Positions 3,287 through 56,746 of a DNA stretch of 64,000 nucleotides are shown one piece after another. The number at the start of each line of letters is the position of its first letter. Positions within the stretch are counted from its first letter, which is position 1. The DNA comes from Candidatus Enterousia sp. (GTDB lineage Bacteria; Pseudomonadota; Alphaproteobacteria; Rs-D84): the NCBI GenBank assembly GCA_045612805.1, contig JAZKZR010000010.1:67136-131135 (forward strand), in the 5' to 3' direction. The notes under the pieces are model-generated. The model made no database searches and was not told the origin of the DNA. It worked only from the letters and a program-made list of their open reading frames with translations. Position numbers and translations under genes: made by a program.

Positions 3287-3307
3287 AGCACAATTAAAAC
3301 GGAACGA

Positions 3308-10842: not shown

Positions 10843-10904
10843 CGCCGACTCCTTTGGTTCTGTCTTGCCCTGGACTTTGTTATTATAGTGCAAATTTGAC
10901 AAAA

Positions 10905-37485: not shown

Positions 37486-37522
37486 GTCGAACAAAAACGC
37501 CGGAATTTTCCCGGCGTTTTTT
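37486..37522. terminator. Bidirectional rho-independent terminator
   Basis: aaacgccggaattttcccggcgttttttt between convergent genes. Confidence 0.7.
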
Positions 37523-39012: not shown

Positions 39013-39081
39013 CGATTTCACCACTAGTTTTTTTTTATGACAGTGGCGTATTTTATACTAAATAAAACTGCTGTCAACAAA

Positions 39082-44277: not shown

Positions 44278-44438
44278 ACATCGCAGAAAACCGGTGTCGC
44301 AAACAATTGTCTTGACTTTTACATCGTTTTATGATACACTATTACTATCAACAGGAGAGATTATATGGTTCGCGCTTTTTAAGTGCGGATTTTTTTTATG
44401 CCACGCGATACGCGTGGCTTTTTACATGGGGAAAAATC

Positions 44439-44849
44439 ATGCAAATGGAAATAATAGAGGCGCACGATGAAACAACCACATTGGCGTATGCGGTCGCGCG
44501 AATCGTTTATGCGGAAACACTTGCAAAATCTTTGCGCGTCGTCGAAGCATTAACATCAATGATTTTTAACGCCGCGAATCACGACATAAAAAATATCAAA
44601 CGCATTATATCGAATTCTAGGATGTTCGAATCGCTATGCACAGAATCAACGCGTCATGAATTTTTATCTGTGGATGCGTCGCGTCGCGATTTTCAAATGT
44701 GCCTGCGCGTGGCGAAAACCATGTTGCACGGAAATTTGCCGGACACGTGTTGTCATGCAACAATGTTTCATCGTGCGGAATTCTTGCCGTCTTGGGCGGT
44801 TGCACGTGGATACATTTGCGACATTGATGGAATTTTATTTTACATATAA
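44439..44849 (+). CDS. Cell-wall hydrolase, SleB-like (possible phage-associated lysin)
   Basis: About 136 aa. ...VVEALTSMIFNAANHD... and C-terminal HATMFHRAEFLPSWA...GYICDIDGILFY resemble the SleB/CwlJ family. Pattern-level only. Confidence 0.45.
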   Translation: MQMEIIEAHDETTTLAYAVARIVYAETLAKSLRVVEALTSMIFNAANHDIKNIKRIISNSRMFESLCTESTRHEFLSVDASRRDFQMCLRVAKTMLHGNLPDTCCHATMFHRAEFLPSWAVARGYICDIDGILFYI

Positions 44850-44867: not shown

Positions 44868-45056
44868 ATGAGCAAATTTTTTCGTGGTGGATTCTTTGCG
44901 AATCGCCGAACACAAATAATGACCGCATGTGGAATTATGTCTGCGTTGTGTGCATACCTTGTTGGCGATTCGGATCTGTTTGCCACAATCCAGGCATTGA
45001 TCGCCGTTGGCGGTGTTTATCTGTTGCATAAAACAAATCAACAAAAAGGAAAATGA
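44868..45056 (+). CDS. Small membrane protein (62 aa)
   Basis: RBS acgggggcaacatg. One TM helix. Located between the hydrolase and the phage scaffold gene (holin-like position). Confidence 0.35.
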   Translation: MSKFFRGGFFANRRTQIMTACGIMSALCAYLVGDSDLFATIQALIAVGGVYLLHKTNQQKGK

Positions 45057-45057
45057 A

Positions 45058-45714
45058 ATGGAAAAAGTACCAGAAAAATTTTTAAACGAAGATGGAACAT
45101 TAAACAGTGACGCATTGATAAAATCATACAACGAACTTGAAAAAAAGATTGGCGGAATGATAACAGTGCCGGATGAAAAATCTGACGAATCGGTGCGAAA
45201 CCGCTTTATGCGCGCGATTGGTGTTCCCGAAAGCCCCGATGAATATCCACATAATGAATTGTTTGATGATGAAAATGTGCGCAAAGAATTTCATAAAATT
45301 GGTTTAACAAATTCGCAGGTTGAAAAAATTTATAACATTGCACAAGAATTTTTATCGCCAATCATATCTGAAATTTTTACGACACAACAAGAAGCAGATG
45401 CAATATCAAAATTAAAAAATTTTTTTGGTGGTGAAGAAAAAATGCATAATGCATTTGTTGCAATAAAATCATTTGGCGAAAGATTTTTACCCGTTGACGC
45501 GTTTAATGAATTATGCTCTACACCCCAAGGAATTCAAGGTGTTTACAAGATGATGCAATCAATGGAACCGCATGTAGAAACGGAAGGTAATGCACCGGAA
45601 AAATTATCTGAATCTGATTTGCGAGACATGATGCGCGATCCAAAATATTGGCGCGATCATGATGCAGAATACATTCGCAAAATTGAAAACGGTTTTAAAA
45701 AATTATATTCGTAA
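45058..45714 (+). CDS. Phage capsid assembly scaffolding protein (T7 gp9-like)
   Basis: RBS aaaaaggaaaatgaaatg. Acidic, helical, 218 aa. Immediately upstream of a T7-gp10-like capsid gene. Assignment is mainly by synteny. Confidence 0.45.
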   Translation: MEKVPEKFLNEDGTLNSDALIKSYNELEKKIGGMITVPDEKSDESVRNRFMRAIGVPESPDEYPHNELFDDENVRKEFHKIGLTNSQVEKIYNIAQEFLSPIISEIFTTQQEADAISKLKNFFGGEEKMHNAFVAIKSFGERFLPVDAFNELCSTPQGIQGVYKMMQSMEPHVETEGNAPEKLSESDLRDMMRDPKYWRDHDAEYIRKIENGFKKLYS

Positions 45715-45831
45715 TGAATTTTTTTTATAAAAATTCACTTTTCTTCTTTACTAATTTTTTTGTTTAATATAAAATAGAACTAAGAACAAAAGAAATTTGT
45801 TCTATCCAAAAAAAATAGAAAGGAGAGATGA

Positions 45832-46113
45832 ATGGCATTCACATTCTTGAAGACTGCGGCAAAGAAACCTGCTGCGAAAAAAACTGTTGCGGCTAAAAAG
45901 CCTGCGGCAAAGAAACCTGCTGCGAAAAAACCTGCGGCGAAAAAGCCGGCTGTGAAGAAAGTTGCGGCAAAGAAACCGGTTGCAAAAAAGACCGTTGCAA
46001 AGAAACCAGCGGCGAAAAAAGTTGCTGTGAAAAAAGTTGCGGCGAAAAAACCGGTTGCAAAAAAGACCGTTGCGAAAAAACCTTGCGCAAAAAAATGCGT
46101 TAAGAAAAAATAA
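45832..46113 (+). CDS. Histone H1-like lysine/alanine-rich DNA-binding protein (KKPAAKK repeats)
   Basis: 93 aa with about 16 tandem AAKKP(A/V) heptad-like repeats (codon-level repeats gcgaaaaaacctgc...). Strong RBS gaaaggagagatgaatg and its own terminator. Confidence 0.7.
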
Positions 46114-46127
46114 TTTTTCGCTAAATC

Positions 46128-46160
46128 TATAAAATGCCCGCAAGTGCGGGCATTTTTAAT
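46128..46160 (+). terminator. Rho-independent terminator after the H1-like gene
   Basis: aaaatgcccgcaagtgcgggcatttttaat. Confidence 0.75.
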
Positions 46161-46334
46161 TCGTAAAATTTTTCAGTCAGATTTGATCGGTCTGACTGAA
46201 TTTTTTTACTTGGATAATCCGGTATTCCGGACCCGTTTAATTTTGTTCTTTGGCGCATACGTGCATAACCAGAAAACAATTTTTGGTTCGGTGAATTTTT
46301 TCATCATGTATAACGTTTAACAAAAGGAATAATA

Positions 46335-47153
46335 ATGTCTGTTTCCATAGATCAAGTATTTGTGAAACAATTCGAAGCCGATGTCCATTTGGCTTATCAA
46401 CAGATGGGCACCAAATTGCGTTCAACCGTGCGCAGCAAATCCGGTGTTGTTGGCAAATCTACAACATTTCAAAAAATCGGTAAAGGCACCGCCAGTACAA
46501 AATCCCGTCATGGAATTGTGCCGGTTATGAATCTGAATCATGAACCTGTGGAATGCAATTTGCAAGATTACTATGCGGGTGATTGGGTTGATGCGTTGGA
46601 TGAATTAAAGGTCAATATTGATGAGCGCCGTGTCGTTGCGTCCGCGGGTGCGTATGCATTGGGGCGTAAAACTGATGAATTGATTATCAATGCGATGACC
46701 GCAACAACCCAGAATTCTGGTGATTATTCGACAGGCCTGACCAAGGCGATTGTTTTGGGTGCATTGGAAAAATTAAATGAAAATGATGTACCGGATGATG
46801 GTCGCCGTTTTGCGGTTGTTGGTGTAAAACAATGGAACGAATTGCTTGCCATTGATGAATTTTCATCCGCGGAATATGTTGGGGATGATTTGCCATTTAT
46901 TAACGGTGGTGAAGTCAAAAGATGGCTTGGCATTACATGGTTGATGCACAACGGTTTGCCGTTGTCTTCGTCAACGCATCGCGATTGCTTTATCTATCAT
47001 GCATCTTGCATTGGTCATGCGTGTGGGCAAGAAGTGAAAACCGATATTTCGTGGCACGGTGAACGTGCGGCGCACTTTATTAGCAACAGTATGTCCCAAG
47101 GCGCGGTGCTGATTGATAACAGTGGAATTGTCCGTCTTAAGTGCGGCGAATAA
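46335..47153 (+). CDS. Phage major capsid protein (T7 gp10-like)
   Basis: 272 aa. Segment-by-segment resemblance to T7 gp10A recalled from memory: QFEADVHLAYQQ...RSKSG..GKSTTFQKIG versus FGGEVLTAFARTS...SISSGKSAQFPVLG. The C-terminal GQEVKTDIS...AVLIDNSGIV resembles T7 AVGTVKLRD...AAGAVVF. RBS aaaggaataataatg. Confidence 0.65.
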   Translation: MSVSIDQVFVKQFEADVHLAYQQMGTKLRSTVRSKSGVVGKSTTFQKIGKGTASTKSRHGIVPVMNLNHEPVECNLQDYYAGDWVDALDELKVNIDERRVVASAGAYALGRKTDELIINAMTATTQNSGDYSTGLTKAIVLGALEKLNENDVPDDGRRFAVVGVKQWNELLAIDEFSSAEYVGDDLPFINGGEVKRWLGITWLMHNGLPLSSSTHRDCFIYHASCIGHACGQEVKTDISWHGERAAHFISNSMSQGAVLIDNSGIVRLKCGE

Positions 47154-47177
47154 CATCAATAACCAAGAGGAAAAACA

Positions 47178-47411
47178 ATGGCTTTTCAAAACAAAAATTT
47201 GTCGGTAATTGCATATGCAAATGGGTTCACGTTGTGGCACTATGTTGAAAGCGCAACATTGGCAACAATCACGGCAAGCGGTTATTTCGATGCGGTGGCA
47301 ACACTTATGAACAATGGTGATATTGTTATTATCAATGGTTCGGACAAAACATCGATAAAGAAAATCGCGGTTAGTGATGCCGGCGTTGTGACGACCGCCA
47401 CATTGGACTAA
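47178..47411 (+). CDS. Small phage structural-module protein (77 aa), function unknown
   Basis: RBS agaggaaaaacaatg. Located between the capsid and gp11-like genes. Confidence 0.4.
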   Translation: MAFQNKNLSVIAYANGFTLWHYVESATLATITASGYFDAVATLMNNGDIVIINGSDKTSIKKIAVSDAGVVTTATLD

Positions 47412-47488
47412 GGTTGATTATTGTTTGCAAAAATATAGGGCCGATTCTTTTCGGCCCTTTTTTCAATTTTTTAGAATAGGGGAAAATA

Positions 47489-48007
47489 ATGCTAACGAAA
47501 ATAGATTTGTGTTCTATGGCATTGTTGAAATTGGGTGAAAATCCGATTCAATCTTTGTCAGATGATACCGCGGCGGCAAAACTGGGACGAACGCTTGTTG
47601 ACTTTGTCATAGACACATTATTGGCAATGCATCCGTGGCGGTTTGCGTGTCGCACATATAATATCATACGTAACGAAAACGGAGATTTTATTATACCATC
47701 GGATGTGTTAAGGGTTATAAAAACCAACGGTAAAATTATCGGAAATCAAATTATATCCAATACAGATACCTTAAACCTGGTGGCCATAGTTCGTGTGACA
47801 CCGGATGTTTTCCCAAGTTATTTCGCATCACTTGTCGCGACAAAACTTGCGGTGGAATTTTGTATGCCGCTTATTTCCGATCAAACGGTATTCAGAACAT
47901 TGGTTGCACTTTATGAAAACGAATTACAAACCGCAAAATTTATAGACAGCACAACATCGGTGAATACGGGGATAGAAAATTTTTCATTGATAGATAGTCG
48001 TTTTTAA
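47489..48007 (+). CDS. Phage tail tubular protein A (T7 gp11-like)
   Basis: 172 aa. N-terminal ...LCSMALLKLGENPIQSLSDDTAAAKLGRTL...HPWRF parallels T7 gp11 ...[34 protein letters not shown]...RGWTF, recalled from memory. Confidence 0.55.
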   Translation: MLTKIDLCSMALLKLGENPIQSLSDDTAAAKLGRTLVDFVIDTLLAMHPWRFACRTYNIIRNENGDFIIPSDVLRVIKTNGKIIGNQIISNTDTLNLVAIVRVTPDVFPSYFASLVATKLAVEFCMPLISDQTVFRTLVALYENELQTAKFIDSTTSVNTGIENFSLIDSRF

Positions 48008-48028
48008 CAAGCCAAAGGAGATTTTAAT

Positions 48029-49732
48029 ATGGGAAATTTTATAAAAACCGAGAAATCTTTTACTAATGGTGAAGTTTCAATAAACTTTTTTGAAAACGAT
48101 GATATCCAAGGCCTTAGGTTTATGGAAAATTTTGATGTGTGTGCGGGTGGTGGCCTTGTGCGGCGGCCTGGTCTAAAAAAATCCACACAATTGATTTCTG
48201 ATGCAAGATTGGTATCTTTTTCATTATCGGAATCCCAAGAATATATTTTGGCAATGATGAACGGACGCATAAGAATTTATGCGAACAATACTTTCGTGCA
48301 AGATGTATTAACACCATGGCCAAGTTCCGTGATTCCGAAATTACAATACACGCAACGTTTTGGCACAATGATATTTGTGCATCCAGATTACGCGCCAATG
48401 GTTTTATATTACGAAAATGGGCTTTTCAAAATTAAAAATTTCACTTTTTCAAAATCGCCGGATACCGGGAATTTGCAAATACCCTTTATGCGATTCGAAG
48501 ATTCCGAAGATGTCACAATAACCATAACAAATTCGGGTGGCATCACACATTTCATAGCAAGTGAAGATTTTTGGACCCAGAATAATGTTGGTGGGCATTT
48601 GTTTGCAATTGGAAAAAGTTGGTTGGTAAATTCGTATGTAAGTGCCACAGATATAACGGTAATATGCAACGGCACATATACAATACCGAATGACCCAATT
48701 TCAGATTGGCAAGAAGCCGCGTTTAGTCCACGTCGCGGTTGGCCATCATCGATAACTTTTCACCAAGATAGGTTGGTTTTTGGTGGTGCTAAATCATGGC
48801 CGGGTGGAATATGGTTGTCGCATGTTGGTGGGCACAGAAATTTTGACCCTGGGACCGGATTGGATGACGAAGCAATATTTTTCACACTATTGTCAGACCA
48901 CAGACAGCATGTTTGCACACTGGTCAGCAGTGATAATTTACAGATACTTACATCCGAAGGGGAATGGGCGGTTTCCAACAAACCACTTACCCCAGAATCA
49001 GTCGATATAAAAACGCATACATCGATTGGCAGCCCCGCGGACAGATATCTTGCGCCACAACAAATCGAAGGCAAAACTATATTCGTCGCAAAAAATAAAG
49101 AAATCCGACAACTGTGTCTTGATAGTTTGGGCGAAAATTACGATGCCAACAATTTATGTGCATTTGCCGAACATTTGATAACGAACCCCGTCGATATTTC
49201 TTACAATAAAAACAATAAAAAACTTTTTGTTGTTATGTCTGATGGAAATATGGCGGTATTGAATTATGACACATCGCACGGAATATCTGCTTGGGGACGA
49301 TACACAACGGATGGAAAGTTTACATCAACCACAACGTACGATGACAAAACATTTGTCGTTGTAAAACGTGGTGACGATTTTTTCCTTGAATATTTTGATG
49401 ATTCAGAATTCGTTGATGCAGATAGTCACACATACACCGCGACGGCATACGGATTACCACTTTTAACATCGGGACATAATGCAAAATATATCAGAATCAC
49501 AAAAATAACAGTTCGCGTTTATAATACCAAGACATTATTCATAAACGATGAACGGGTGGTTTTGCCAAACGATGTTTATTCCGATGATTCGGTCGGGTTC
49601 AGTGGTGATGCATCTATAAATGTATTGGGAACAAGTGCAGATTTAATTGATGCGCCATGGAAAATTTCTACGACAGACAATTTGCCATTAAAAATATTGT
49701 CGGTGACAATATACGGAAGATATCAAATATAA
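48029..49732 (+). CDS. Phage tail tubular protein B (T7 gp12-like), shortened
   Basis: 567 aa. ITFHQDRLVFGG...LQILTSEGEWAVSNKPLTPESVDIKT resembles T7 gp12 VFFFRNRLGFLSG...LLIWSDEAQFVLTASGTLTSKSVELNLTT, recalled from memory. Confidence 0.5.
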   Translation: MGNFIKTEKSFTNGEVSINFFENDDIQGLRFMENFDVCAGGGLVRRPGLKKSTQLISDARLVSFSLSESQEYILAMMNGRIRIYANNTFVQDVLTPWPSSVIPKLQYTQRFGTMIFVHPDYAPMVLYYENGLFKIKNFTFSKSPDTGNLQIPFMRFEDSEDVTITITNSGGITHFIASEDFWTQNNVGGHLFAIGKSWLVNSYVSATDITVICNGTYTIPNDPISDWQEAAFSPRRGWPSSITFHQDRLVFGGAKSWPGGIWLSHVGGHRNFDPGTGLDDEAIFFTLLSDHRQHVCTLVSSDNLQILTSEGEWAVSNKPLTPESVDIKTHTSIGSPADRYLAPQQIEGKTIFVAKNKEIRQLCLDSLGENYDANNLCAFAEHLITNPVDISYNKNNKKLFVVMSDGNMAVLNYDTSHGISAWGRYTTDGKFTSTTTYDDKTFVVVKRGDDFFLEYFDDSEFVDADSHTYTATAYGLPLLTSGHNAKYIRITKITVRVYNTKTLFINDERVVLPNDVYSDDSVGFSGDASINVLGTSADLIDAPWKISTTDNLPLKILSVTIYGRYQI

Positions 49733-49751
49733 ACGAACAAGAGGTATAAAA

Positions 49752-50096
49752 ATGGGACAAATTATTTCAGATGTTACAGATATTTTGAATTATAAAGAAA
49801 ATAAAAATGCGGCCGAAAAAAACAAAAAAAAGATTTTATCAGATATTGCATCGGACGAAGTAGAAAAACAAAACATTGTGAAAAAAGTGCTTGCCATGCA
49901 ACGCGCAAAATACGGCGCATCCGGCATGTCGGCCAATGGAATAACGGAAAAAAATGTTATGCACAGGTTGCAACAGGAAATCGAAACCCCGTATGACAAT
50001 AAAATAAAAACAAACATGGCAAAATTAAATAGTATCGGCGTAAAAAAGAAAAATATGCTGACATCAATTTTGGAACACCTGGATAAACTGGTTTGA
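49752..50096 (+). CDS. Hypothetical phage protein (114 aa); position suggests terminase small subunit
   Basis: RBS aagaggtataaaaatg. Lys-rich and helical. Sits immediately upstream of the terminase large-subunit fragment. Confidence 0.3.
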   Translation: MGQIISDVTDILNYKENKNAAEKNKKKILSDIASDEVEKQNIVKKVLAMQRAKYGASGMSANGITEKNVMHRLQQEIETPYDNKIKTNMAKLNSIGVKKKNMLTSILEHLDKLV

Positions 50097-50695
50097 AAAC
50101 CATGAATCAATACAATGAATTTTTGGATTCTTGGAATCATGTATTGGGATATGAAACGCCGGCGCATCACCGTGATATGATGAATTTTTTAACAAGTGTA
50201 ATCACCGGCGATTCGCACCGGGGGTTGCTTATGGCGTTCCGTCATTCAGGCAAATCAACAATTGTCGGAATTTTTGCCGCGTGTGTATTATATCGGCGAC
50301 CCGAAACACGGATTTTGATTTTATCCGCGGAAACACATTTGGCAACAAGGATGGTTATGCATATTCGCAATGTTTTGGAAAATCATCCTTGGTGTGCGGA
50401 TATGATTCCAAAAAATAAACGCGAATGGGCGGAAAATAAAATAACCATAAACCGCCCCATCGGAATTCGTGAACCATCCGTTGTTTGCCAAGGCGTTTAT
50501 GGCAACATCACCGGTATGCGTGCGGATTTAATAATATGTGACGATGTCGAAGTTCCAAATACTTGTAATACAATAAAAAAACGGGCCGGTCTGCGCGACA
50601 GATTGCGCGAACTGGATTTTATCCTGTCACCAAATGGAACGATGATTTATATTGGAACGCCACACACACTGGATACAATATACCGAATATCTTAG
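50093..50695 (+). pseudogene. Terminase large subunit, N-terminal ATPase fragment (T7 gp19-like), terminated after motif C
   Basis: Walker A LLMAFRHSGKST, Walker B LIICDDVE, motif C IYIGTP, then a TAG stop. The nuclease domain is absent here and found at 54064-54927. Confidence 0.6.
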
Positions 50696-51345
50696 GCCGC
50701 ATCATGCGACGGCATAGAACTAAGCAACCCGTGTAAACGGTGCAACATCTTTTTGCCTTCATCACCAAACATTGGTAAATACGTTTCATATTCCGGCATG
50801 TCTACCTGCAGATTTGCGCGTGCGCGTTCGGTAATGGGTTTAGATAATACATCGTTCGCGTTGTCCCACATACGATAAGCCGTGGCCGCGCGAACAATAT
50901 CATCAAATTTTCGTAATGCTTCGGGATTGTTGAACAATGCGTTTTTGGACCGCGACACCCAATCGTCACCGAATTTTTTAATGATCGGATTCGCCATGAA
51001 TCGATTTATGCCATCAAGATCTGGGTTAAACGAATCAATTGCCGAAATCAATTGCTGTAATTCATCATCCGCCATGTCTGATGCATCCGCAGATTCATTC
51101 ATCATGCCACCATACGGCAACAATTCGCGCGCAATAGAATCCATTGGTGTTGTGCCGTCACGTAAATTTTTAATATGTTGAATCAACATTTTTCCGGTGG
51201 GTAAATCTTGCAATTCGTGCAAAATCTCATCGGTTGCTTCGTCAACAAAAACACGATTCACTGCGCGCCATCCACCGACGATAACATGCGCCTGGCGATA
51301 AAGATTCAAAAGTTTTTGTGCAATAACACTTGCCCTTGCTTTCAT
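50692..51345 (-). CDS. Hypothetical protein (217 aa) within the block inserted in the terminase gene
   Basis: ORF on the opposite strand to the phage structural genes. No domain recognised. Confidence 0.4.
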   Translation of the reverse strand: MKARASVIAQKLLNLYRQAHVIVGGWRAVNRVFVDEATDEILHELQDLPTGKMLIQHIKNLRDGTTPMDSIARELLPYGGMMNESADASDMADDELQQLISAIDSFNPDLDGINRFMANPIIKKFGDDWVSRSKNALFNNPEALRKFDDIVRAATAYRMWDNANDVLSKPITERARANLQVDMPEYETYLPMFGDEGKKMLHRLHGLLSSMPSHDAA

Positions 51346-51371
51346 CCCGATTATTCCCCCGCGGTGGTGTT

Positions 51372-52382
51372 TTATTCGGCCAAAATCATTATAACCTTGT
51401 GCATTGTCGGCGCAGAAATCTTTTCATCGGGCGAAACCATTTGACCATAAATTTTGCCCTTGGAATCTTTACGCACAACGGCGATATTGGCGGTTGTTTT
51501 TTCCTCGGACTTTAGCGAATTAAATTCCGCATCAACGAAAACAGCCAAATCACCCGGAACAACGTTTGCCTTTGCATCCGCAAAAACATATGATTTTTCC
51601 GGTATAAATCCGCCCAAGCGTTTAGAATTAGGAATGACCGCATATACATTACGACGACCTTCAAGATTTGCCGGTGCGGCAATCATTTTTGATTCAGACC
51701 GTACAAAACTCATAACCTTGCCATCGGGCCGCCCAAACACAGGAATCAATTTACGCCGCGCATTATCATAAAGTTTTGCACCGTACAAATGCCCATGCGT
51801 TTCATCAAAATCATTGGACGAATCACCTGGTACCAAAACGGCCTGAACACGTTCTTTGACCTTGTTCATCTGTTTGGTAAGTTCGCCAGATTTATAAAGT
51901 TCGGCAATTTTATCAAACAAACTTTCGACAGAATGTGCAAAAGATTTTGCCAAAGGTTCAATTTCGTTTTTATAAACCTCGCGTTGACCAACCTCTATCT
52001 TATGATACACCGAAAGTGTCATGCCGGCATCTTTGGCGGCCTGGGCAATTGTTTTGCCAGATTGTTGACGTATTTTGCGCAATCCGGTACCAAACACCTT
52101 AAGACCACCGTCTTCGTTATCATTCATACGACGGGTAATTTCATTTTGCCATTTTGACGCAACCTCGTCAGTGTCTTTGATGAAAATATCGGACAATTTG
52201 CACCCCAAGATGTTGCAGATATTCAATAACTGTTTCTGATTAAGGCGACGAACACCCTTTTCAATCTTGGAAACAGCGGACAGCGATAAATTCGAACGCC
52301 GTGCCAGTTCGGTCATTTTCATACCAGTGGCAAGACGTATATTACGAATATTATTCGGAAAAATGATTTCTTCTTGGGCCAT
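51372..52382 (-). CDS. XRE-family transcriptional regulator with tandem HTH domains and a C-terminal LexA/CI-like beta domain
   Basis: Start MAQEEIIF with canonical RBS aaggag(6)atg. Two HTH_XRE-like segments (IRNIRLATGMKMTELARRSNLSLSAVSKIEKG; LRKIRQQSGKTIAQAAKDAGMTLSVYHKIEVG). The C-terminal domain is CI/S24-like but has no clear Ser-Lys dyad. Confidence 0.55.
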   Translation of the reverse strand: MAQEEIIFPNNIRNIRLATGMKMTELARRSNLSLSAVSKIEKGVRRLNQKQLLNICNILGCKLSDIFIKDTDEVASKWQNEITRRMNDNEDGGLKVFGTGLRKIRQQSGKTIAQAAKDAGMTLSVYHKIEVGQREVYKNEIEPLAKSFAHSVESLFDKIAELYKSGELTKQMNKVKERVQAVLVPGDSSNDFDETHGHLYGAKLYDNARRKLIPVFGRPDGKVMSFVRSESKMIAAPANLEGRRNVYAVIPNSKRLGGFIPEKSYVFADAKANVVPGDLAVFVDAEFNSLKSEEKTTANIAVVRKDSKGKIYGQMVSPDEKISAPTMHKVIMILAE

Positions 52383-52447
52383 AAAAAACTCCTTGGGTAA
52401 ATCTTGACAAAATGATAAGCGATTTTTTGAATTATGGCAAGGAAAAA

Positions 52448-52540
52448 GTGATAGAGTGTTAGTGGTTAGTCGTTTCTGGAATAAATTCGCAATTACAAGA
52501 TAATTCCAGAAATTACTAACCACTAACACTAGCCACTATT
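52448..52540. repeat. Palindromic intergenic element family 2 copy (with nested ttctggaat...attccagaa inverted repeat)
   Basis: gagtgttagtggttagtcg ... ctaaccactaacactagccacta arms flank a tctggaataaattcgcaattacaagataattccaga core. Lies between the regulator start and the dnaB stop. Confidence 0.7.
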
Positions 52541-54089
52541 ATTCGAATTCATCTGGAATTTCATCAATATCAATCGACATTGGGGCGTCGACCGGTTCGG
52601 CAACTGGCGGCATATCCGGTGCAAATTCTACACCGCGTCCCGCCATTTCGCCAAGGTTGTCGAACAAACTATATTCCGCCAAGAATGCGACCGTGACCGT
52701 ATCCGTTCGGCCGTGACGGTTCTTGCCAATGATAATGTCCGCCTTGCCCTTGGCCTTTTCAAGCCGGTTTTGCCACGAATCGACGGACTTTTCACTTGGC
52801 GTATTTGAAAGTCGCCGTGACGGGTCACGATTTTGCAGATAGTATTCTTCACGATATGTGAACATAACAATGTCGGCGTCTTGTTCAATTGAACCTGATT
52901 CACGCAAATCGGCAAGTTGTGGCCGTTTATCATCACGATTTTCAACACTGCGCGACAATTGCGACAGGGCGATAACCGGGACATTAAATTCCTTGGCCAT
53001 CATTTTAAGGCCACGCGTGATTTCGGACAATTCTTGAACACGATTGTCGCTGCGTTTCCCGCCCGGCAAAGTCAGTAATTGCAAATAATCGATAACGATA
53101 AGTGCAATGCCATTATATTTCCGCGCAAGACGCCGCACCCGCGTGCGAATCATCGGCAAAGACATGCCAGGCGTATCATCAATGAACAACGGAATCCGCC
53201 CGATTGCATCTGAAAACTGGGCCATTTTAAGGAAATCTTCATCCGTTAGTGAACCTTCACGCATTGCGGAAGACGGAATTCGTGCCTGGGAAGCCAAAAC
53301 GCGCGCCGCCAATTCAGACGCACCCATTTCAAGACTAAAAAACGCGACCGCGCCCTTATATTGTTCGTTCGCGCGACTGGAATAAATCGCATTCGCGGCA
53401 TTGAACGCGATATTCATGGCAAGCGTGGTTTTACCCATACCCGGACGACCCGCGATAATAAGCAAATTTGATTTATGCAAACCACTTATTGCGCGGTCCA
53501 AATCGGTAAGTCCCGTGGTAAGTCCCGAAAGTTTTCCGTCCGCCTTGTATGCAATTTCCGCCTCACTCAGGGCATCTTTTAACGCGTTTGCAATCGGCAC
53601 GACATCGCGTGACGCATCGCCGGTCATTGCCAAATTGAACAATTTTTGTTCGGCGGATTCAATCTGTGACGACACCGGGTTATCAAGGTCTTCGACAAAC
53701 GCGGCATCGGTGACCGATTGCCCAAAATCGATAAGTTCGCGCCGCACCGCGTTTTCATGAACGATTCGACCGTATTGTTCGACATTTACAACGGTTGCGC
53801 CGGCACTTGCCAACTGGGTCAAATATTCAACGCCACCAACAGATTCCAATGTCCCTTGCTGGTCCAAATAGTTTTTTGCGGTGATTATATCAAACGGAAT
53901 TCCGGCGGCAAATTGGCGCAGGGCAAGTTTATAAATTTCTTGGTGCGCGGGATGCGAAAAATCTTCCGGTCGCAAAAATTCGGAAATTTTTTCAAGTGCC
54001 CGATTCTTCATTAAAACCGCGGCAAGAACGGCCTGTTCGGCCTCTAAATTCGTTGGCAAAGTTTTGGGAGTAAAGTCCATGTCAAACAT
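52539..54089 (-). CDS. dnaB: Replicative DNA helicase DnaB
   Basis: 516 aa. N-terminal domain LEAEQAVLAAVLM. Walker A GRPGMGKTT, SLEMG, Walker B LIVIDYLQL, arginine finger region IIGKNRHG. Acidic C-terminal tail. Confidence 0.85.
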   Translation of the reverse strand: MFDMDFTPKTLPTNLEAEQAVLAAVLMKNRALEKISEFLRPEDFSHPAHQEIYKLALRQFAAGIPFDIITAKNYLDQQGTLESVGGVEYLTQLASAGATVVNVEQYGRIVHENAVRRELIDFGQSVTDAAFVEDLDNPVSSQIESAEQKLFNLAMTGDASRDVVPIANALKDALSEAEIAYKADGKLSGLTTGLTDLDRAISGLHKSNLLIIAGRPGMGKTTLAMNIAFNAANAIYSSRANEQYKGAVAFFSLEMGASELAARVLASQARIPSSAMREGSLTDEDFLKMAQFSDAIGRIPLFIDDTPGMSLPMIRTRVRRLARKYNGIALIVIDYLQLLTLPGGKRSDNRVQELSEITRGLKMMAKEFNVPVIALSQLSRSVENRDDKRPQLADLRESGSIEQDADIVMFTYREEYYLQNRDPSRRLSNTPSEKSVDSWQNRLEKAKGKADIIIGKNRHGRTDTVTVAFLAEYSLFDNLGEMAGRGVEFAPDMPPVAEPVDAPMSIDIDEIPDEFE

Positions 54090-54927
54090 AGTATACGAAA
54101 AAAATGTTTTTTCAACGCCTTTTTTATCGGGTTATTCGGAATTGAAAATTCCAATAATTGACAGTGACGGAAACCCGGCGTGGCCGGCGGTTTTCCCAAT
54201 TGAAAAAATCGATAAAATCCGCAAAACCGTGGGCGAACGACATTTTTCGGCACAAATGATGTTGCAATATATCGCGCCCGATAAAATCCGCCTTGACCCG
54301 GGGGGAATAAAATTATATGACGCGGAATTTGATCCGCACGGGTGCCGAATTGACGAAATGCCAATAACCGGTGCGACAATATATTGGGATCCGTCGGGTG
54401 GGCGACGAAATTCGGATAACAGTGTTTGCGTGATTATTTATCGTGATGACCGAACGCATCGCGCGTTTATTCACGATATGATTTATTTGGTTGTCCCAGA
54501 CGAAGTTGAATATCCACTTGCATACCAATGTGAAAAGGTTTTGTCGTTTGTGCGCGCACACCGGCAAAGAACCCTTGCACTTGAAACAAACGGAATTGGT
54601 GCGGCGTTGCCGGAAATTATGCGTGAAACAATTGCGCGCGCGGGCTATGAAATACAAATCCGCCCGATAAGCAACAGCCACCGCAAAGAAGACCGAATCT
54701 TGGACGCAATCGAACCGTTGCTTACGACCGGGCGACTTTACGCGCATCGGCGCATAACGCAAACCCCGTTTATCTCGGAAATGTTGGCATGGACACCGAT
54801 TGGTGGCGGCGAACATGACGACGGATTGGACGCGGTTGCGGGGGCAATTTTATGTTCGCCCAGCCCCGTGCGTCCCATTGGAACAAACGTTCGCCCATTT
54901 ATCGCGAACACAGAATTCAAACTTTAA
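54064..54927 (+). pseudogene. Terminase large subunit, C-terminal nuclease-domain fragment (T7 gp19-like)
   Basis: IYWDPSGG...D.SVCVIIY (RNase-H-like nuclease Asp motif) and DDGLDAVAGAI (terminal Asp motif), parallel to T7 gp19 AGIDSQ... and NEALDCFVYALAA. In-frame continuation of the 50093-50695 fragment is impossible, because about 3.4 kb of opposite-strand genes intervene. Confidence 0.6.
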
Positions 54928-54942
54928 CCAAAAGGAAGAAAA

Positions 54943-56169
54943 ATGAAATATGACTTACAACAAATGTATTCACATGCATTGGCTCTGCGCGAACCATGGA
55001 TTAAACGTTGGTCTGATGCGCGCCGTTACACTATGCCTACAACCGATGAAGAAATCGCGACACTGTTCGATGGAACAGCGGCGGACGCGGCAGATAATTT
55101 GGCGGCGTGTATGTATTCATTACTAACCCCGCCGGAATCATTGTGGTTGAACCTTATTCCGGAATCCGAAGATTCCCCGGATGCGGCAACGGCGACAATG
55201 GCATTACGTTCGAACCTAAACGAATCAAATTTTTATACAACGGTGCACCAATGTTATCTTGATTTGGTGACGGTTGGAACGGCGTGTCTGTTTATGTCCG
55301 AATCACCAATTGGCGCGGCAAGTGCGTTTAACTTTACCGCGATTCCGATGACGGATATTGCGATTTTGCCGAACGCGGTGTTTCACACGGCAACCATGAC
55401 CGCCCAAGAAGTTGCGCGCCGTTATCCCGAATGGACACCACCACACGCAATCCTTGACGCGATGAAGCAAAATCCGGAATACCAATTGCGCCTTGTTCAG
55501 GCATTGGTTGACACGGAATTCACCGCATGGATAGATGTCGGTGGCAATCTTGAAAACAACATTGTGTCGCGTGGCACATTTGAAACGAACCCATACATCA
55601 TATTCCGCTGGGCCGTGTCCAGTGGTGAACTGTACGGCCGCGGGCCGGTGCTGCGCGCGTTGCCCGATATCAAAACCGCGAACAAGGTCGTCGAACTTGT
55701 CCTAAAAAACGCAACCATCGCGGTCAGTGGCATATGGCAGGCCGACGATGATGGCGTCATAAACCTTGGCAACATAAACCTTACCCCGGGTGCAATTATA
55801 CCCAAAGCGGTGGGCAGTACCGGCCTTACACCACTTGCAACGGGTGCAAATTTTGATGTGTCGCAAATAATTCTAAAAGACCTGCGCGAACGCATCCGCC
55901 ACACAATGCTTGCGGACAGAATCGGCACACTTTCGGACAAAGAAATGACCGCAACGGAAATACTTGCGCGGAATGCGGACATGTTGCGTATATTGGGCGC
56001 GACATATGGACGATTGCTGCACGAATTTATCCGGCCGCTTTGCGACCGCGGATTGCAAATCCTTGCACGGCGCGGGGTAATCGACAAAATATCACTGCAC
56101 AGTGACGCGGAATTAAAATACATTGCCCCGATTGCACAAATGGTCGCGGAAAACGGAACATTGATATAG
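54943..56169 (+). CDS. Phage portal/head-to-tail connector protein (T7 gp8-like), shortened
   Basis: 408 aa. AACMYSLLTPPESLWLNLIPESE / YLDLVTVGTACLFMSE parallel T7 gp8 LASKLMLALFPMQTWMRLTISEYE / LKQLVVAGNVLLYLPE, recalled from memory. RBS aaaggaagaaaaatg. Confidence 0.55.
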   Translation: MKYDLQQMYSHALALREPWIKRWSDARRYTMPTTDEEIATLFDGTAADAADNLAACMYSLLTPPESLWLNLIPESEDSPDAATATMALRSNLNESNFYTTVHQCYLDLVTVGTACLFMSESPIGAASAFNFTAIPMTDIAILPNAVFHTATMTAQEVARRYPEWTPPHAILDAMKQNPEYQLRLVQALVDTEFTAWIDVGGNLENNIVSRGTFETNPYIIFRWAVSSGELYGRGPVLRALPDIKTANKVVELVLKNATIAVSGIWQADDDGVINLGNINLTPGAIIPKAVGSTGLTPLATGANFDVSQIILKDLRERIRHTMLADRIGTLSDKEMTATEILARNADMLRILGATYGRLLHEFIRPLCDRGLQILARRGVIDKISLHSDAELKYIAPIAQMVAENGTLI

Positions 56170-56178
56170 GGGGCGCGT

Positions 56179-56385
56179 ATGGAAAAAATTGCACACGAAT
56201 ACGCCCGCACCTTTGCGGGCGCATCGGGGCGGGCGGTCATTGAACACCTGCGCCGGATAACAATCGAAAGGGTGCTGGGGCCACATGCAACGGACGGCGA
56301 ATTGCGCGCACTGGAAGGTGCGCGCGCGATCGTGCATCAAATTGAAACTTTAATTGAACGGGGGCGCGGCAATGCCAAAATCTAA
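56179..56385 (+). CDS. Small hypothetical phage-module protein (68 aa)
   Basis: Follows the portal gene. No RBS evidence. Low confidence. Confidence 0.3.
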   Translation: MEKIAHEYARTFAGASGRAVIEHLRRITIERVLGPHATDGELRALEGARAIVHQIETLIERGRGNAKI

Positions 56386-56629
56386 TGGATTCGCAAACAT
56401 CATCGACACATTACGCAGTGGTTGGTTCATTATCGCGTTTATTGCGGGCATGATATATTGGGTGGCGCGCCAAGATAACGCCCTGGTCGAACTTGACCGA
56501 TTGACGACACGCATAACGACACTTGAAAATCGCACAACGATTTTGGAAACCGGAATAGGGCAATTGCAATTAAAAATCGACGGCATCAAAGAAGACCTGA
56601 CCCTTATCAAAACCGCAGTGATAAAGTAG
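56372..56629 (+). CDS. Small membrane protein with coiled-coil (85 aa), phage module
   Basis: Start MPKSNGF. One TM helix (WFIIAFIAGMIYWV), then a coiled coil. Confidence 0.35.
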   Translation: MPKSNGFANIIDTLRSGWFIIAFIAGMIYWVARQDNALVELDRLTTRITTLENRTTILETGIGQLQLKIDGIKEDLTLIKTAVIK

Positions 56630-56746
56630 TGTTAGTGGGAAATGCAAGTGGTTAGTGTTAGTGTGTCCTGGAATAACTTCGAGATTACGGATTGATTCCA
56701 GAAGACGACTAACCACTATCCACTAACACTTACCCCTACCCACTAA
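56626..56746. repeat. Palindromic intergenic element family 2 copy marking the right end of the phage-like module
   Basis: agtgttagtgggaaatgcaagtggttagtgttagtg ... cactatccactaacacttacccctacccacta with nested cctggaata...attccagaag. Abuts the yraN stop. Confidence 0.7.

What the first reader, a model, noticed from the sequence alone, without database searches (positions are those of the whole stretch)
45058..56629. Degraded T7-like podophage structural module in non-canonical order, lacking tail fibre, core and DNA-metabolism genes
The genes encode scaffold (gp9-like), capsid (gp10-like), gp11-like and gp12-like tubular proteins, a candidate small terminase, a large terminase (split) and a portal (gp8-like), all on the + strand. 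The portal follows the terminase instead of preceding the scaffold. Genes gp13-gp17.5, RNAP, DNAP and lysis genes are absent, and several genes (gp12, portal) are shortened. This looks like an old, partly domesticated T7-like remnant, rare in alphaproteobacterial symbiont-like genomes. It could be a defective particle or GTA-like structure, or simply a decaying prophage.
Basis: partly seen in the sequence, partly recalled or inferred. Interest (0 to 1): 0.65.

Follow-up and report, generated by a model that had tools for sequence, protein, structure and literature searches.

The report
Domesticated podophage particle genes in Enterousia
A tiny-genomed gut bacterium (Candidatus Enterousia) has kept a complete set of phage head, short-tail, DNA-packaging and lysis genes intact across hundreds of species, so this is most likely a working virus-like particle such as a gene transfer agent, not a dying prophage.

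Summary
They are not decaying.

- **Conservation:** the same gene order, with every ORF intact, occurs in all of about 70-80 species-level genomes of Candidatus Enterousia (order Rs-D84, genomes under 1 Mb). There were 260 matches in a one-genome-per-species collection.
- **Selection:** dN/dS is 0.03-0.15. Capsid and portal evolve no faster than DnaB and co-diverge with it.
  - The host-type dnaB operon sits on the minus strand exactly inside the terminase gene. The two halves tile an intact 481-aa relative, and all catalytic motifs are invariant.
  - An endolysin-holin pair lies directly upstream.
  - A lambda-PR'-like promoter is followed by tandem terminators.
  - A covarying, Rfam-unknown RNA leader precedes the capsid gene.
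  - A histone-like AKKP-repeat gene lies between scaffold and capsid.
- **Not supported:** the "small terminase". It weakly resembles an internal virion protein.
- **Not found in the window:** tail fibre, large core proteins, small terminase.

Best reading: an independently domesticated, podovirus-derived, GTA-like particle. Particle production and DNA transfer are inferred, not shown.

The parts
44312..44340 (+). Near-consensus sigma-70 promoter of the late operon. The -35 is TTGACT; the -10 is TACACT here and TGTGATATAAT in other lineages.
   Evidence: Found by the promoter scan. Both hexamers are conserved in all 13 aligned lineages upstream of the hydrolase gene.
44367..44418 (+). Two tandem intrinsic terminators (44367-44391 and 44400-44418, each with a T-run) in the leader between the promoter and the first gene.
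   Evidence: z = -4.2. Both hairpins occur at the same positions with different, compensating sequences in the other lineages.
44439..44849 (+). SleB-type cell-wall hydrolase, 136 aa; endolysin candidate.
   Evidence: Hits phrog_938 (endolysin) at 2e-6. Orthologues carry PF07486, and sources name them 'cell wall hydrolase'. The Glu of the YAET motif is invariant. It is 25% identical (E 1e-11) to the hydrolase in the lysis cassette of phage-type contig L088. It always lies directly upstream of the scaffold gene.
44868..45056 (+). 62-aa protein with two hydrophobic segments and a basic C-terminus; holin-like.
   Evidence: Sequence and hydropathy. Orthologues are 74-79% identical, all 62 aa and at the same place. 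No family hit, so the assignment rests on architecture and position.
45058..45714 (+). T7-type scaffolding protein, 218 aa.
   Evidence: PF05396 at 1.9e-10. It is 34% identical to the scaffold of phage fragment MT838907. dN/dS 0.07-0.23.
45832..46113 (+). Histone-H1-like AKKP-repeat protein. It is 36-41% Lys/Arg, starts MAFTFLK and ends CAKKxCAKKK.
   Evidence: PF07382 HC2, 60.6 bits, a compositional match. It is present between scaffold and capsid in almost all lineages, at 67-163 aa with varying repeat number. It is absent at that place in phage relatives. It is followed by two terminator hairpins at 46136-46157 and 46172-46207.
46208..46277 (+). Conserved structured RNA leader (two stem-loops with conserved internal loops) upstream of the capsid gene. 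A further hairpin lies at 46290-46305.
   Evidence: Of the cells, 87.6% are paired, against 26-43% when the partners are slid. Twelve of 15 pairs show compensatory changes, and 0 of 500 shuffles reach the observed values. There is no Rfam match. The covariance model gives one hit in the window (72.7 bits), hits in Enterousia-type loci, and none in 37 phage-type contigs.
46335..47153 (+). Major capsid protein, 272 aa (HK97 fold, Phage_capsid_2 lineage).
   Evidence: PF19821 at 6e-76 and phrog_3437 at 6e-74. It is 64% identical to MT838907 and 47% to Pelagibacter phage Hodr. Intact in 68 of 68 genomes. dN/dS 0.03-0.07. It evolves at 0.74 times the rate of DnaB.
47178..47411 (+). 77-aa protein that follows the capsid gene in phage relatives too; function unknown.
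   Evidence: phrog_18004 at 4e-12. Homologues lie after the capsid gene in MT838907 and Hodr.
47437..47458 (+). Intrinsic terminator between the capsid block and the tail genes.
   Evidence: A GC-rich hairpin with a T-run occupies this position in all 17 aligned lineages, with covarying sequence.
47489..48007 (+). gp11-like tail tubular protein A (adaptor), 172 aa.
   Evidence: phrog_394 at 1e-29. Intact in 69 of 69 genomes. dN/dS 0.06-0.13.
48029..49732 (+). gp12-like tail tubular protein B (nozzle), 567 aa.
   Evidence: phrog_376 at 1e-80. PDB tail nozzle 8ck1 at 2.6e-27. It is collinear with a 634-aa phage nozzle up to residue 467, and the C-terminus then diverges. Intact in 69 of 69 genomes.
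49752..50096 (+). 114-aa protein after the nozzle gene. Probably a small internal virion protein rather than a small terminase.
   Evidence: Eight of 25 orthologues hit phrog_418 (internal virion protein), best E 4e-4, and none hits a terminase family. There is no BLAST hit in phages. It shares a motif (QRAKYGASGMS against RRAKLGSAGITS) with the gene after the nozzle in L088, seen by eye only.
50093..50695 (+). Large terminase, N-terminal fragment: ATPase core through the C-motif, 200 aa.
   Evidence: phrog_38 positions 273-458. It aligns to T7 gp19 (PDB 8dgc) residues 41-213. Walker A, Walker B and the C-motif are invariant in 72 sequences. dN/dS 0.05-0.085.
50692..51345 (-). 217-aa conserved protein of unknown function, the last gene of the nested dnaB operon.
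   Evidence: No Pfam, PHROG or NCBIfam hit. The AF2 model is all-alpha (pLDDT 83) with no PDB fold match. The family has 1342 proteins. It is present in every Enterousia-type locus and in no phage-type contig.
51372..52382 (-). Regulator with two XRE-type HTH domains and an unassigned C-terminal domain, 336 aa. Its own promoter lies at 52412-52440.
   Evidence: PF01381 twice. phrog_3 and phrog_8 repressors at 1e-15. The promoter TTGCCA-N17-TATCAT is conserved and overlaps a TTGAC-N9-GTCAA palindrome in other lineages.
52539..54089 (-). Replicative DNA helicase DnaB, of the host (alphaproteobacterial) type.
   Evidence: NF006606 scores 597.6 bits, above its cutoff of 540. The phage_DnaB model TIGR03600 scores 410, below its cutoff of 498.65. 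dN/dS 0.02-0.09.
54079..54927 (+). Large terminase, C-terminal fragment: the rest of the ATPase domain plus the RNase-H-like nuclease, 282 aa, with its own SD (GGGAG, 54066-54070) and ATG.
   Evidence: phrog_38 positions 481-705, PF22530 and PF17289. It tiles residues 198-457 of the intact 481-aa relative P0362, while the N-fragment tiles 6-198. The nuclease motifs YWDPS.G and HDDGlDA are invariant in 79 sequences. The SD and ATG lie antisense within dnaB codons 1-4 in all lineages.
54943..56169 (+). T7-type portal protein, 408 aa.
   Evidence: PF12236 at 5.8e-82. More than 120 clusters at 79-98% identity are all 406-410 aa long. It lacks about 64 C-terminal residues and several loops relative to a 505-aa phage portal. 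Intact in 80 of 80 genomes. dN/dS 0.03-0.07.
56179..56385 (+). Bbp19-like small phage protein, 68 aa.
   Evidence: PF25181 at 2.2e-12. Homologues lie between portal and scaffold in MT838907, Hodr and IMG/VR phage contigs.
56372..56629 (+). 85-aa protein with an N-terminal TM helix and a coiled coil; candidate lysis accessory.
   Evidence: Weak XhlA and Rz-spanin hits at E about 0.009. Hydropathy. A 95-aa protein of the same architecture precedes the SleB gene in phage-type contig L088. dN/dS 0.03-0.12.

Best explanation
This is a podovirus-derived structural, packaging and lysis module. It was captured by the ancestor of Candidatus Enterousia (Alphaproteobacteria, order Rs-D84) and has been inherited vertically as a host function ever since.

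It most likely builds a DNA-filled, short-tailed, virus-like particle that is released by lysis. That would make it a gene-transfer-agent-like 'viriform'.

**Shown**
- T7/HTVC010P-type homology of scaffold, capsid, adaptor, nozzle, portal and large terminase.
- An adjacent endolysin-holin pair.
- Identical synteny and intact ORFs in about 70-80 species-level genomes.
- Purifying selection as strong as on DnaB.
- Invariant ATPase and nuclease motifs in both terminase fragments.
- Conserved promoter, terminators and a covarying RNA leader.

**Inferred**
- The two terminase fragments reassemble non-covalently into an active packaging motor.
- The module is one late transcription unit. It starts at a strong promoter that is immediately blocked by tandem terminators, like lambda PR'-tR'. 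It is therefore expressed only when an unidentified antitermination signal lets RNA polymerase read through: across the nested histone-like gene and its terminators, across the capsid leader, and antisense through the dnaB operon into terC-portal.
- Particles package host DNA and deliver it to sister cells.
- Missing parts (receptor-binding protein, small terminase) are either encoded elsewhere or dispensable.
For: **Ancestry**
- The concatenated terminase aligns in one piece to T7-like terL and to T7 gp19.
- The nearest phages are MT838907 and Pelagibacter phage Hodr.

**Host**
- The host lineage is Candidatus Enterousia.
- Its genomes are 0.75-1.0 Mb and about 90% coding (PMC12306168).

**Conservation**
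- There are 260 matches in the one-genome-per-species collection.
- Order and strands are the same in every locus with enough flank.
- Intact ORFs: 68/68 capsid, 69/69 nozzle, 71/71 terN, 78/78 terC (excluding one cut by a locus end), 80/80 portal.

**Selection**
- dN/dS is 0.03-0.07 for capsid and for portal.
- It is 0.05-0.085 for terN and 0.06-0.2 for terC.
- dnaB shows 0.02-0.09.
- Capsid evolves at 0.74 times and portal at 0.94 times the DnaB rate. Spearman correlation with dnaB distance is 0.73-0.85.

**Terminase**
- Walker A, Walker B, the C-motif and the nuclease acidic motifs are invariant.
- The fragments tile residues 6-198 and 198-457 of an intact 481-aa relative.
- terC has its own SD and ATG in all lineages.

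**Lysis**
- The SleB hydrolase and a 2-TM protein lie upstream.
- A phage relative carries an equivalent lysis cassette: a TM-plus-coiled-coil protein, a SleB hydrolase and a holin.

**Regulation**
- A conserved promoter is followed by two covarying terminators.
- A covarying terminator follows the capsid block.
- A structured leader precedes the capsid gene.

**Precedent**
- RcGTA-like head clusters are kept under purifying selection in reduced alphaproteobacterial endosymbionts (PMC9254644).
Against: - No particle, packaged DNA or transfer has been observed. Everything functional is inferred from sequence.
- The 64-kb window holds no tail fibre or receptor-binding protein, no recognisable small terminase and no gp15/gp16-like ejection proteins. 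Only about 7% of the genome was visible.
- The terminase is cut inside the ATPase domain, just after the C-motif and not at the domain linker. Activity would require fragment complementation, which is untested.
- The portal has lost its C-terminal about 64 residues.
- No antiterminator was identified. The 217-aa protein has no fold match.
- Capsid size is unknown, so the GTA hallmark of a head too small for its own gene cluster cannot be assessed.
Confidence: 0.55

Rival explanations
1. The module makes a particle, but not for gene transfer. It could be a killing or adhesion particle (a 'podo-tailocin'), a device for releasing DNA or proteins on lysis, or a decoy against related phages.
For: - The structural and lysis genes are conserved, but no fibre, small terminase or ejection proteins are seen.
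- The nozzle, its C-terminus and terC evolve about twice as fast as DnaB, as surface-interaction parts often do.
- Related phages exist in the same habitats.
Against: - Both terminase fragments keep every ATPase and nuclease catalytic motif and are under strong purifying selection. That argues DNA packaging is part of the function.
- No toxin or effector gene lies in the module.
Confidence: 0.2
2. It is an incomplete element that depends on something else. It could be a satellite-like or helper-dependent module that borrows fibres, core proteins and small terminase from an infecting phage. Alternatively it is one part of a multi-locus prophage whose other parts lie elsewhere in the genome.
For: - Functions are missing.
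- Phage relatives with 59-66% capsid identity, carrying those functions, circulate in gut and rumen metagenomes.
- Known GTAs are multi-locus (own knowledge).
Against: - There is no integrase, replication or excision function.
- The chromosomal position is fixed, with host synteny conserved on both sides.
- Host genes are nested inside the module.
- The module co-diverges with dnaB. This is not the patchy distribution expected of a mobile satellite.
Confidence: 0.1
3. The proteins are kept for functions other than building a particle, or the DNA is kept because essential genes (dnaB, the histone-like gene) and their regulation are entangled with it.
For: - dnaB overlaps the terC start, and its promoter must lie inside terC.
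- The histone-like gene is nested between scaffold and capsid.
Against: - Entanglement could conserve a few hundred bases, not low dN/dS across 9 kb of twelve co-functional virion genes.
- The stoichiometry-type terminator after the capsid block is also conserved.
- So are the lysis cassette and the catalytic motifs.
Confidence: 0.05
4. It is a decaying cryptic prophage, as the finding's title implies.
For: - Many phage functions are absent.
- The portal and nozzle are shorter than in phages.
- The terminase is interrupted.
Against: - There are no pseudogenes in about 70-80 species.
- dN/dS is 0.03-0.15.
- Capsid evolves more slowly than DnaB.
- The host genomes are streamlined at under 1 Mb with about 90% coding density (PMC12306168).
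Confidence: 0.03

Closest known systems
RcGTA-type gene transfer agents of Alphaproteobacteria, including the reduced 'head-only' clusters in Rickettsiales and Holosporaceae endosymbionts (PMC9254644)
   Same: - A phage-derived head, packaging and tail cluster fixed in the chromosome.
- No replication or integration genes.
- Vertical inheritance and purifying selection, with head genes more constrained than tail genes.
- Retention in reduced alphaproteobacterial genomes.
   Different: - Not homologous. This module is T7/HTVC010P-like: a scaffold protein rather than a prohead protease, a PF19821 capsid, a PF12236 portal and a short gp11/gp12 tail. RcGTA is siphovirus-like.
- The terminase is split and has dnaB nested inside it.
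- The lysis genes are contiguous with the head genes.
FpGTA of Faecalibacterium prausnitzii (PMC12946183)
   Same: A GTA-like element of gut bacteria inferred to have podovirus-like morphology.
   Different: - A different phylum (Firmicutes).
- FpGTA has experimental evidence of packaged host DNA, and its two operons include a receptor-binding protein.
- Sequence relatedness to this module was not tested. No packaging data exist for Enterousia.
HTVC010P-type and T7-like podophages: Pelagibacter phage Hodr, the faecal fragment MT838907, and IMG/VR contigs such as L088 and L165
   Same: - Homologous portal, Bbp19-like protein, scaffold, capsid, 77-aa protein, adaptor, nozzle and T7-type terL.
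- The same local gene order.
   Different: - The phages have a single-ORF terL (498-507 aa) and a longer portal (505-585 aa).
- They carry 3.5-6 kb of internal and fibre genes, plus early and replication genes.
- The Enterousia module lacks these, is circularly permuted, carries nested host genes, and is fixed in the chromosome.
Lambdoid late operon control (PR'-tR' with Q antitermination) and HK022 put RNA (own knowledge)
   Same: - A strong promoter followed at once by terminators, ahead of lysis genes and then head genes.
- A two-stem-loop RNA upstream of further terminators.
   Different: - No Q-like protein was found.
- The RNA motif matches no Rfam family.
- Function is untested, so this is an analogy of layout only.

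Membership tests
T7-like phage / prophage (Autographiviridae-type) | Homologous T7-type virion and packaging genes (gp8, 9, 10, 11, 12, 19) | tested here: met
   PF12236, PF05396, PF19821, phrog_394, phrog_376, phrog_38 and PF22530. T7 gp19 PDB 8dgc at 2e-24.
T7-like phage / prophage (Autographiviridae-type) | Phage-encoded RNA polymerase, DNA replication genes, internal core gp14-16 and a tail fibre, giving an autonomous genome | tested here: not met
   None is in the module or the 64-kb window. The flanks are host genes, and synteny with host genes is conserved.
Gene transfer agent / viriform (generic definition) | A phage-derived structural cluster in the host chromosome without replication, integration or excision functions | tested here: met
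   The only replication gene present, dnaB, is the host-type equivalog.
Gene transfer agent / viriform (generic definition) | Vertical inheritance with the host clade and purifying selection | tested here: met
Gene transfer agent / viriform (generic definition) | Particles package essentially random host DNA and transfer it to recipient cells | not testable with these tools
   This needs VLP-fraction sequencing and transfer assays. Only indirect hints exist: invariant terminase active sites and a 4.5-kb recombination tract inside the module between close relatives.
Gene transfer agent / viriform (generic definition) | Head capacity too small to carry the element's own genes | not testable with these tools
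   Capsid and scaffold have the same lengths as in phage relatives. The T number cannot be read from sequence.
RcGTA-like family (Rhodobacter-type) | Homology to RcGTA head-tail genes: an HK97-type capsid with prohead protease and a siphovirus tail | tested here: not met
   Pfam and PHROG matches are all to T7-type podovirus families. No protease, tape-measure or tail-tube genes are present.
Decaying cryptic prophage | Pseudogenes, relaxed selection and a patchy distribution among relatives | tested here: not met
   No disrupted ORFs. dN/dS 0.03-0.15. The module is present in every related locus examined.
Phage satellite (PICI-like / capsid-forming) | An integrase, replication and excision functions, and mobile, sporadic occurrence | tested here: not met
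   No integrase or replication initiator is present. The position is fixed and the module co-diverges with dnaB.

The most novel reading that the evidence does not exclude
The module may be a new, independently evolved GTA family whose expression is physically wired to the cell's replication machinery.

- A single antitermination-controlled late transcript would start at the promoter upstream of the hydrolase gene.
- It would read through six terminators and a dedicated regulatory RNA.
- It would then run antisense through the essential dnaB operon nested inside the terminase gene.
- Committing to particle production would therefore silence the replicative helicase at the same time.
- The terminase would work as two separately translated polypeptides.

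The conserved capsid leader would be a new class of riboswitch or cis-antiterminator RNA.
Probability: 0.15. Interest if true: 0.9.

Novelty: new variant of a known kind. Interest (0 to 1): 0.8.

Why it matters
If it works as inferred, this would be an independent domestication of a T7/HTVC010P-type podovirus into a host-maintained particle.

- **Where it occurs:** in a widespread, uncultured lineage of gut and rumen Alphaproteobacteria with genomes under 1 Mb. In such genomes every retained kilobase implies selection.
- **Precedent:** the library searches found no description of it. The only podovirus-like GTA reported so far is in Firmicutes (PMC12946183).
- **The open question it bears on:** why do genome-reduced, host-dependent bacteria keep phage heads (PMC9254644)? 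One proposal is that they escape Muller's ratchet through gene exchange. This module makes that testable with existing rumen and gut viromes, metatranscriptomes and metaproteomes.

It also offers three mechanistic oddities, each testable on its own:
- A large terminase split inside its ATPase domain, with both halves conserved.
- An essential replication operon nested antisense within a late phage operon.
- A covarying RNA leader with no known family.

Tried and rejected
- **Exact look-up of the window's nozzle protein.** Not on record.
- **Programmed excision.** The idea was that the dnaB segment excises to restore an intact terminase gene, as sigK/skin-type elements do. No direct repeats lie at the two junctions and no recombinase is present. 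The idea is kept only as a remote possibility.
- **The 217-aa protein.** I asked whether it is a known regulator, loader, recombinase or Q-type antiterminator.
  - No Pfam, NCBIfam or PHROG hit.
  - No PDB sequence hit for the profile.
  - A confident all-alpha AF2 model (pLDDT 83) has no Foldseek match in the PDB.
- **The 114-aa protein as small terminase.** No terminase hit, no phage BLAST hit and no PDB hit. It shows no similarity to the protein after the nozzle gene in Hodr.
- **Hodr terL as the terminase ancestor.** Unrelated. The terminase is T7-type.
- **C-terminal domain of the HTH regulator as a LexA/S24 peptidase.** No hit.
- **Operator palindrome of the HTH gene elsewhere in the window.** Matches do not exceed chance.
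- **The 28-nt inverted repeat between dnaB and the HTH gene as a conserved regulator.** It is lineage-specific and belongs to a repeated palindromic element.
- **Rfam identity for the capsid leader.** Only chance-level hits, far below gathering scores.
- **Other phage genes in the remaining 52 kb of the window.** Only housekeeping genes and a few ORFs without any family.
- **Uniqueness of the split terminase.** Most relatives are 450-515 aa. A few proteins of about 200 aa exist but cannot be told apart from contig-end fragments.

Full report
**What is in the sequence**

- **Scaffold:** 45058-45714, T7-type, PF05396 at 1.9e-10.
- **Capsid:** 46335-47153, Phage_capsid_2, PF19821 at 6e-76.
- **Adaptor:** 47489-48007, gp11-like, phrog_394 at 1e-29.
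- **Nozzle:** 48029-49732, gp12-like, phrog_376 at 1e-80; PDB tail nozzle 8ck1 at 2.6e-27.
- **Large terminase:** two ORFs. 50093-50695 matches phrog_38 positions 273-458. 54079-54927 matches positions 481-705, plus PF22530 (T7 terminase RNase-H domain).
- **Portal:** 54943-56169, T7-type, PF12236 at 5.8e-82.

The flanks are host genes: birA on the left, and yraN, a VirB8-like gene, bamA and rseP on the right. The other 45 kb of the window is housekeeping: priA, an ABC transporter, acetate kinase and fatty-acid synthases. A few ORFs have no family match. No RNA polymerase, DNA polymerase, fibre or large core genes are present.

1. The 3.4 kb between the terminase halves is not junk. It holds three minus-strand genes.
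   - dnaB, 52539-54089. The alphaproteobacterial replicative-helicase equivalog NF006606 scores 597.6 bits, above its cutoff of 540. The phage-DnaB model scores below its cutoff.
   - A regulator with two XRE HTH domains, 51372-52382.
   - A 217-aa protein with no family, 50692-51345.
2. Directly upstream of the scaffold gene lie two more genes.
   - A 136-aa SleB-type cell-wall hydrolase, 44439-44849. It hits phrog_938 (endolysin) at 2e-6. Its orthologues carry PF07486, and the catalytic-motif Glu is invariant.
   - A 62-aa protein with two hydrophobic segments and a basic tail, 44868-45056. I read these two as an endolysin-holin pair.
3. Between scaffold and capsid sits a histone-H1-like AKKP-repeat gene, 45832-46113. 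It is about 40% Lys/Arg.
4. After the portal come a Bbp19-like 68-aa protein (PF25181, 2e-12) and an 85-aa protein with a TM helix and a coiled coil.
5. Eight of 25 orthologues weakly match phrog_418, an internal virion protein.

**It is conserved, not decaying**

A search with the portal returned more than 120 clusters at 79-98% identity. All are 406-410 aa long. They lie on contigs of up to 915 kb, and those that carry a source name are labelled Alphaproteobacteria MAGs.

In a one-genome-per-species collection the portal motifs gave 260 confirmed matches. The best 80 are from Candidatus Enterousia and unnamed alphaproteobacterial MAGs of rumen and gut. According to PMC12306168, Enterousia (order Rs-D84) has genomes of 0.75-1.0 Mb and about 90% coding density. 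It lacks glycolysis, the TCA cycle and respiration.

- **Synteny:** a tblastn table shows every locus with enough flank has the same genes, in the same order, on the same strands. This includes the minus-strand dnaB operon between the terminase halves. Gene calls on independent metagenome contigs agree, and they extend the conserved synteny to the hydrolase, the 62-aa gene and the upstream host genes.
- **Intact ORFs:** no ORF is disrupted anywhere. Counts are capsid 68/68, adaptor 69/69, nozzle 69/69, terN 71/71, terC 78/78 (excluding one cut by a locus end) and portal 80/80.
- **dN/dS (Nei-Gojobori) against ten relatives:**
  - capsid 0.03-0.07
  - portal 0.03-0.07
  - terN 0.05-0.085
  - terC 0.06-0.2
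  - adaptor 0.06-0.13
  - nozzle 0.07-0.14
  - for comparison, dnaB 0.02-0.09 and yraN 0.04-0.15
- **Rate and co-divergence:** over 69 genomes the capsid evolves at 0.74 times and the portal at 0.94 times the protein rate of DnaB. Their pairwise distances track dnaB distances, with Spearman correlations of 0.73-0.85. This is vertical inheritance under strong constraint, in genomes that shed anything dispensable.

**The split terminase**

- The concatenated fragments align in one piece to T7-like large terminases, covering query residues 7-470.
- They also align to T7 gp19 (PDB 8dgc), straight across the junction.
- Against an intact 481-aa relative at 51% identity, the N-fragment covers residues 6-198 and the C-fragment covers 198-457. 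Nothing was lost: 200 + 282 aa against 481 aa.
- The break lies just after the GTPH C-motif, inside the ATPase domain rather than at the domain linker.
- Walker A (FRHSGKST), Walker B (LIICDD.EVPNT), the C-motif (YIGTPH) and the nuclease motifs (YWDPS.G, HDDGlDA) are invariant in 72-79 sequences.
- terC has its own Shine-Dalgarno (GGGAG) and ATG. In all lineages these lie antisense within the first four codons of dnaB.
- terN and the 217-aa gene converge with a 4-nt overlap.
- No direct repeats or recombinase suggest that the insert can excise.
- I infer that the two polypeptides reassemble. This is untested.

**Origin**

The nearest true phages are these:

- A 5-kb human-faecal phage fragment, MT838907: capsid 64% identical, portal 42%.
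- HTVC010P-type Pelagibacter phage Hodr: 47% and 33%.
- Many IMG/VR contigs with capsids 59-66% identical.

Those phage contigs have a single-ORF terL (498-507 aa), a portal of 505-585 aa and a nozzle of 633-636 aa. Their order is portal, Bbp19-like, scaffold, capsid, 77-aa gene, adaptor, nozzle, then internal and fibre genes, then terL.

One relative, L088, carries a lysis cassette between terL and portal:
- a 95-aa protein with a TM helix and a coiled coil;
- a SleB hydrolase, 25% identical to the window's, E 1e-11;
- a holin (PF11351).

The Enterousia order is a circular permutation of this map. Joining its right end (the 85-aa TM/coiled-coil gene) to its left end (hydrolase, holin-like gene) recreates such a cassette. 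This is inference.

IMG/VR also lists many Enterousia-type modules as 'proviruses'. All of them have the nested dnaB operon.

The portal lacks about 64 C-terminal residues and several loops. The nozzle is collinear with its phage relative up to residue 467 and then diverges.

**Regulatory anatomy (sequence shown, function inferred)**

- **Promoter and leader terminators.** Upstream of the hydrolase gene, every lineage has a near-consensus promoter: TTGACT, N17, then an extended -10 (window 44312-44340). It is followed within about 100 nt by two intrinsic terminators whose stems covary (44367-44391 and 44400-44418). The first gene comes after them.
- **After the histone-like gene.** This gene is followed by two more terminators (46136-46157 and 46172-46207).
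- **Capsid leader RNA.** A 70-nt element follows at 46208-46277. It has two stem-loops with conserved internal loops.
  - Of the cells, 87.6% are paired, against 26-43% in slid controls.
  - Twelve of 15 pairs carry compensatory changes, and 0 of 500 shuffles reach the observed values.
  - It matches no Rfam family.
  - A covariance model finds it once in the window. It finds it in the Enterousia-type loci tested, and in none of 37 phage-type contigs.
  - A further hairpin, terminator-like in most lineages, precedes the capsid SD.
- **After the capsid block.** A position-conserved, covarying terminator follows the capsid and 77-aa genes (47437-47458).
- **No promoter region for terC-portal.** There is no intergenic space upstream of this operon.

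The simplest model treats the whole + strand module as one late unit, laid out like lambda PR'-tR' (own knowledge). It would be expressed only under processive antitermination. The nested host genes would keep their own promoters and terminators. Read-through would then run antisense across the dnaB operon. The factor responsible was not identified.

**Function**

The conserved set is what a minimal DNA-filled podovirus particle with lytic release needs:
- endolysin and holin;
- scaffold, capsid and portal;
- adaptor and nozzle;
- a small internal protein;
- a catalytically intact packaging ATPase and nuclease.

It lacks anything for autonomous replication or mobility. I therefore favour a GTA-like particle, at confidence 0.55 for the full statement. 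I put far higher confidence, about 0.95, on 'domesticated and functional'.

Unresolved gaps:
- no receptor-binding protein;
- no small terminase;
- no large ejection proteins in the visible 64 kb;
- untested complementation of the split terminase.

Rivals are a particle with a non-transfer role (0.2), a helper-dependent or multi-locus element (0.1), retention through entanglement or moonlighting (0.05), and a decaying prophage (0.03).

**Comparison and novelty**

In kind it resembles GTAs. The closest parallel is the RcGTA-like head clusters kept under purifying selection in reduced alphaproteobacterial endosymbionts (PMC9254644). It is not homologous to RcGTA.

The only podovirus-like GTA in the searched literature is FpGTA of Faecalibacterium (PMC12946183). 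Full-text searches for Enterousia, Rs-D84, and combinations of GTA, podovirus, T7-like and domestication found no description of this module.

I rate it a new variant of a known kind, with interest 0.8.

Noticed in passing
window 46208-46277 (+), with hairpin 46290-46305: A conserved, covarying two-stem-loop RNA lies in the capsid 5' leader. It matches no Rfam family, occurs once in the window, is present in Enterousia-type loci and is absent from related phage contigs. It is a candidate riboswitch or cis-antiterminator.
   Followed up: yes
window 46444-50943, compared with locus L006: DNA identity to a close relative is 95-97% on both sides but drops abruptly to 79-86% across capsid-to-terN (dS 0.6-1.3 against 0.1-0.25). 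This is a recombination tract of about 4.5 kb inside the module. In the window this block also has lower GC3 (0.26-0.41) than terC, portal and host genes (0.42-0.57).
   Followed up: partly
window ~6925-6940, 52455-52530, 56628-56730: A repeated palindromic intergenic element (core AGTGTTAGTGGTTAGT ... ACTAACCACTAACACT) forms long hairpins (z = -5.8). It gives 7 arm matches against 0.15 expected by chance. It is lineage-specific and REP/MITE-like.
   Followed up: partly
window 52412-52440 (-), and the same place in L024, L031, L035, L045 and others: A conserved promoter (TTGCCA-N17-TATnAT) upstream of the double-HTH regulator overlaps a TTGAC-N9-GTCAA palindrome in most lineages. This suggests autoregulation. 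The palindrome is degenerate in the window, and no further copies were found there.
   Followed up: partly
L168:3338-4195 (-) and 2851-3306 (-): In a lineage with a 958,617-bp contig, a 285-aa GH108 lysozyme with a PG_binding_3 domain and a weak Phage_Mu_F signal, plus a 151-aa gene, sit immediately beside the right end of the module. They are absent at that place in the window.
   Followed up: no
L157 and L167 (IMG/VR records derived from genome entries 2778261143 and 2802429400): Higher-GC contigs carry a different permutation of the same gene set: capsid, 77-aa gene, adaptor, nozzle, portal, Bbp19-like, scaffold. These may be other rearranged or domesticated versions in other bacteria.
   Followed up: no
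window 45832-46113 and the orthologous positions in about 50 loci: The AKKP-repeat histone-like protein varies from 67 to 163 aa through changes in repeat number. It keeps the N-terminal MAFTFLK and the C-terminal CAKKxCAKKK with two cysteines. Its role is unknown: a nucleoid protein, or a DNA-condensing virion component.
   Followed up: partly
window 42854-43102 (+) and 43206-43625 (+): An 82-aa protein with a weak Cro/C1-type HTH hit and a 139-aa protein are conserved just upstream of birA in all lineages examined. By eye, the C-terminus of the 139-aa protein resembles an OmpR-type winged helix. They are possible regulators and were not tested.
   Followed up: no
window 8332-10902 (-), 16643-18790 (-), 37522-39024 (-): Large ORFs of 856, 715 and 500 aa have no confident family assignment: the first two gave no Pfam hit at E 1e-5, and the 500-aa ORF gave no PHROG hit and only weak Pfam hits below their cut-offs. 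They cannot be excluded as missing particle components such as a receptor-binding protein.
   Followed up: no
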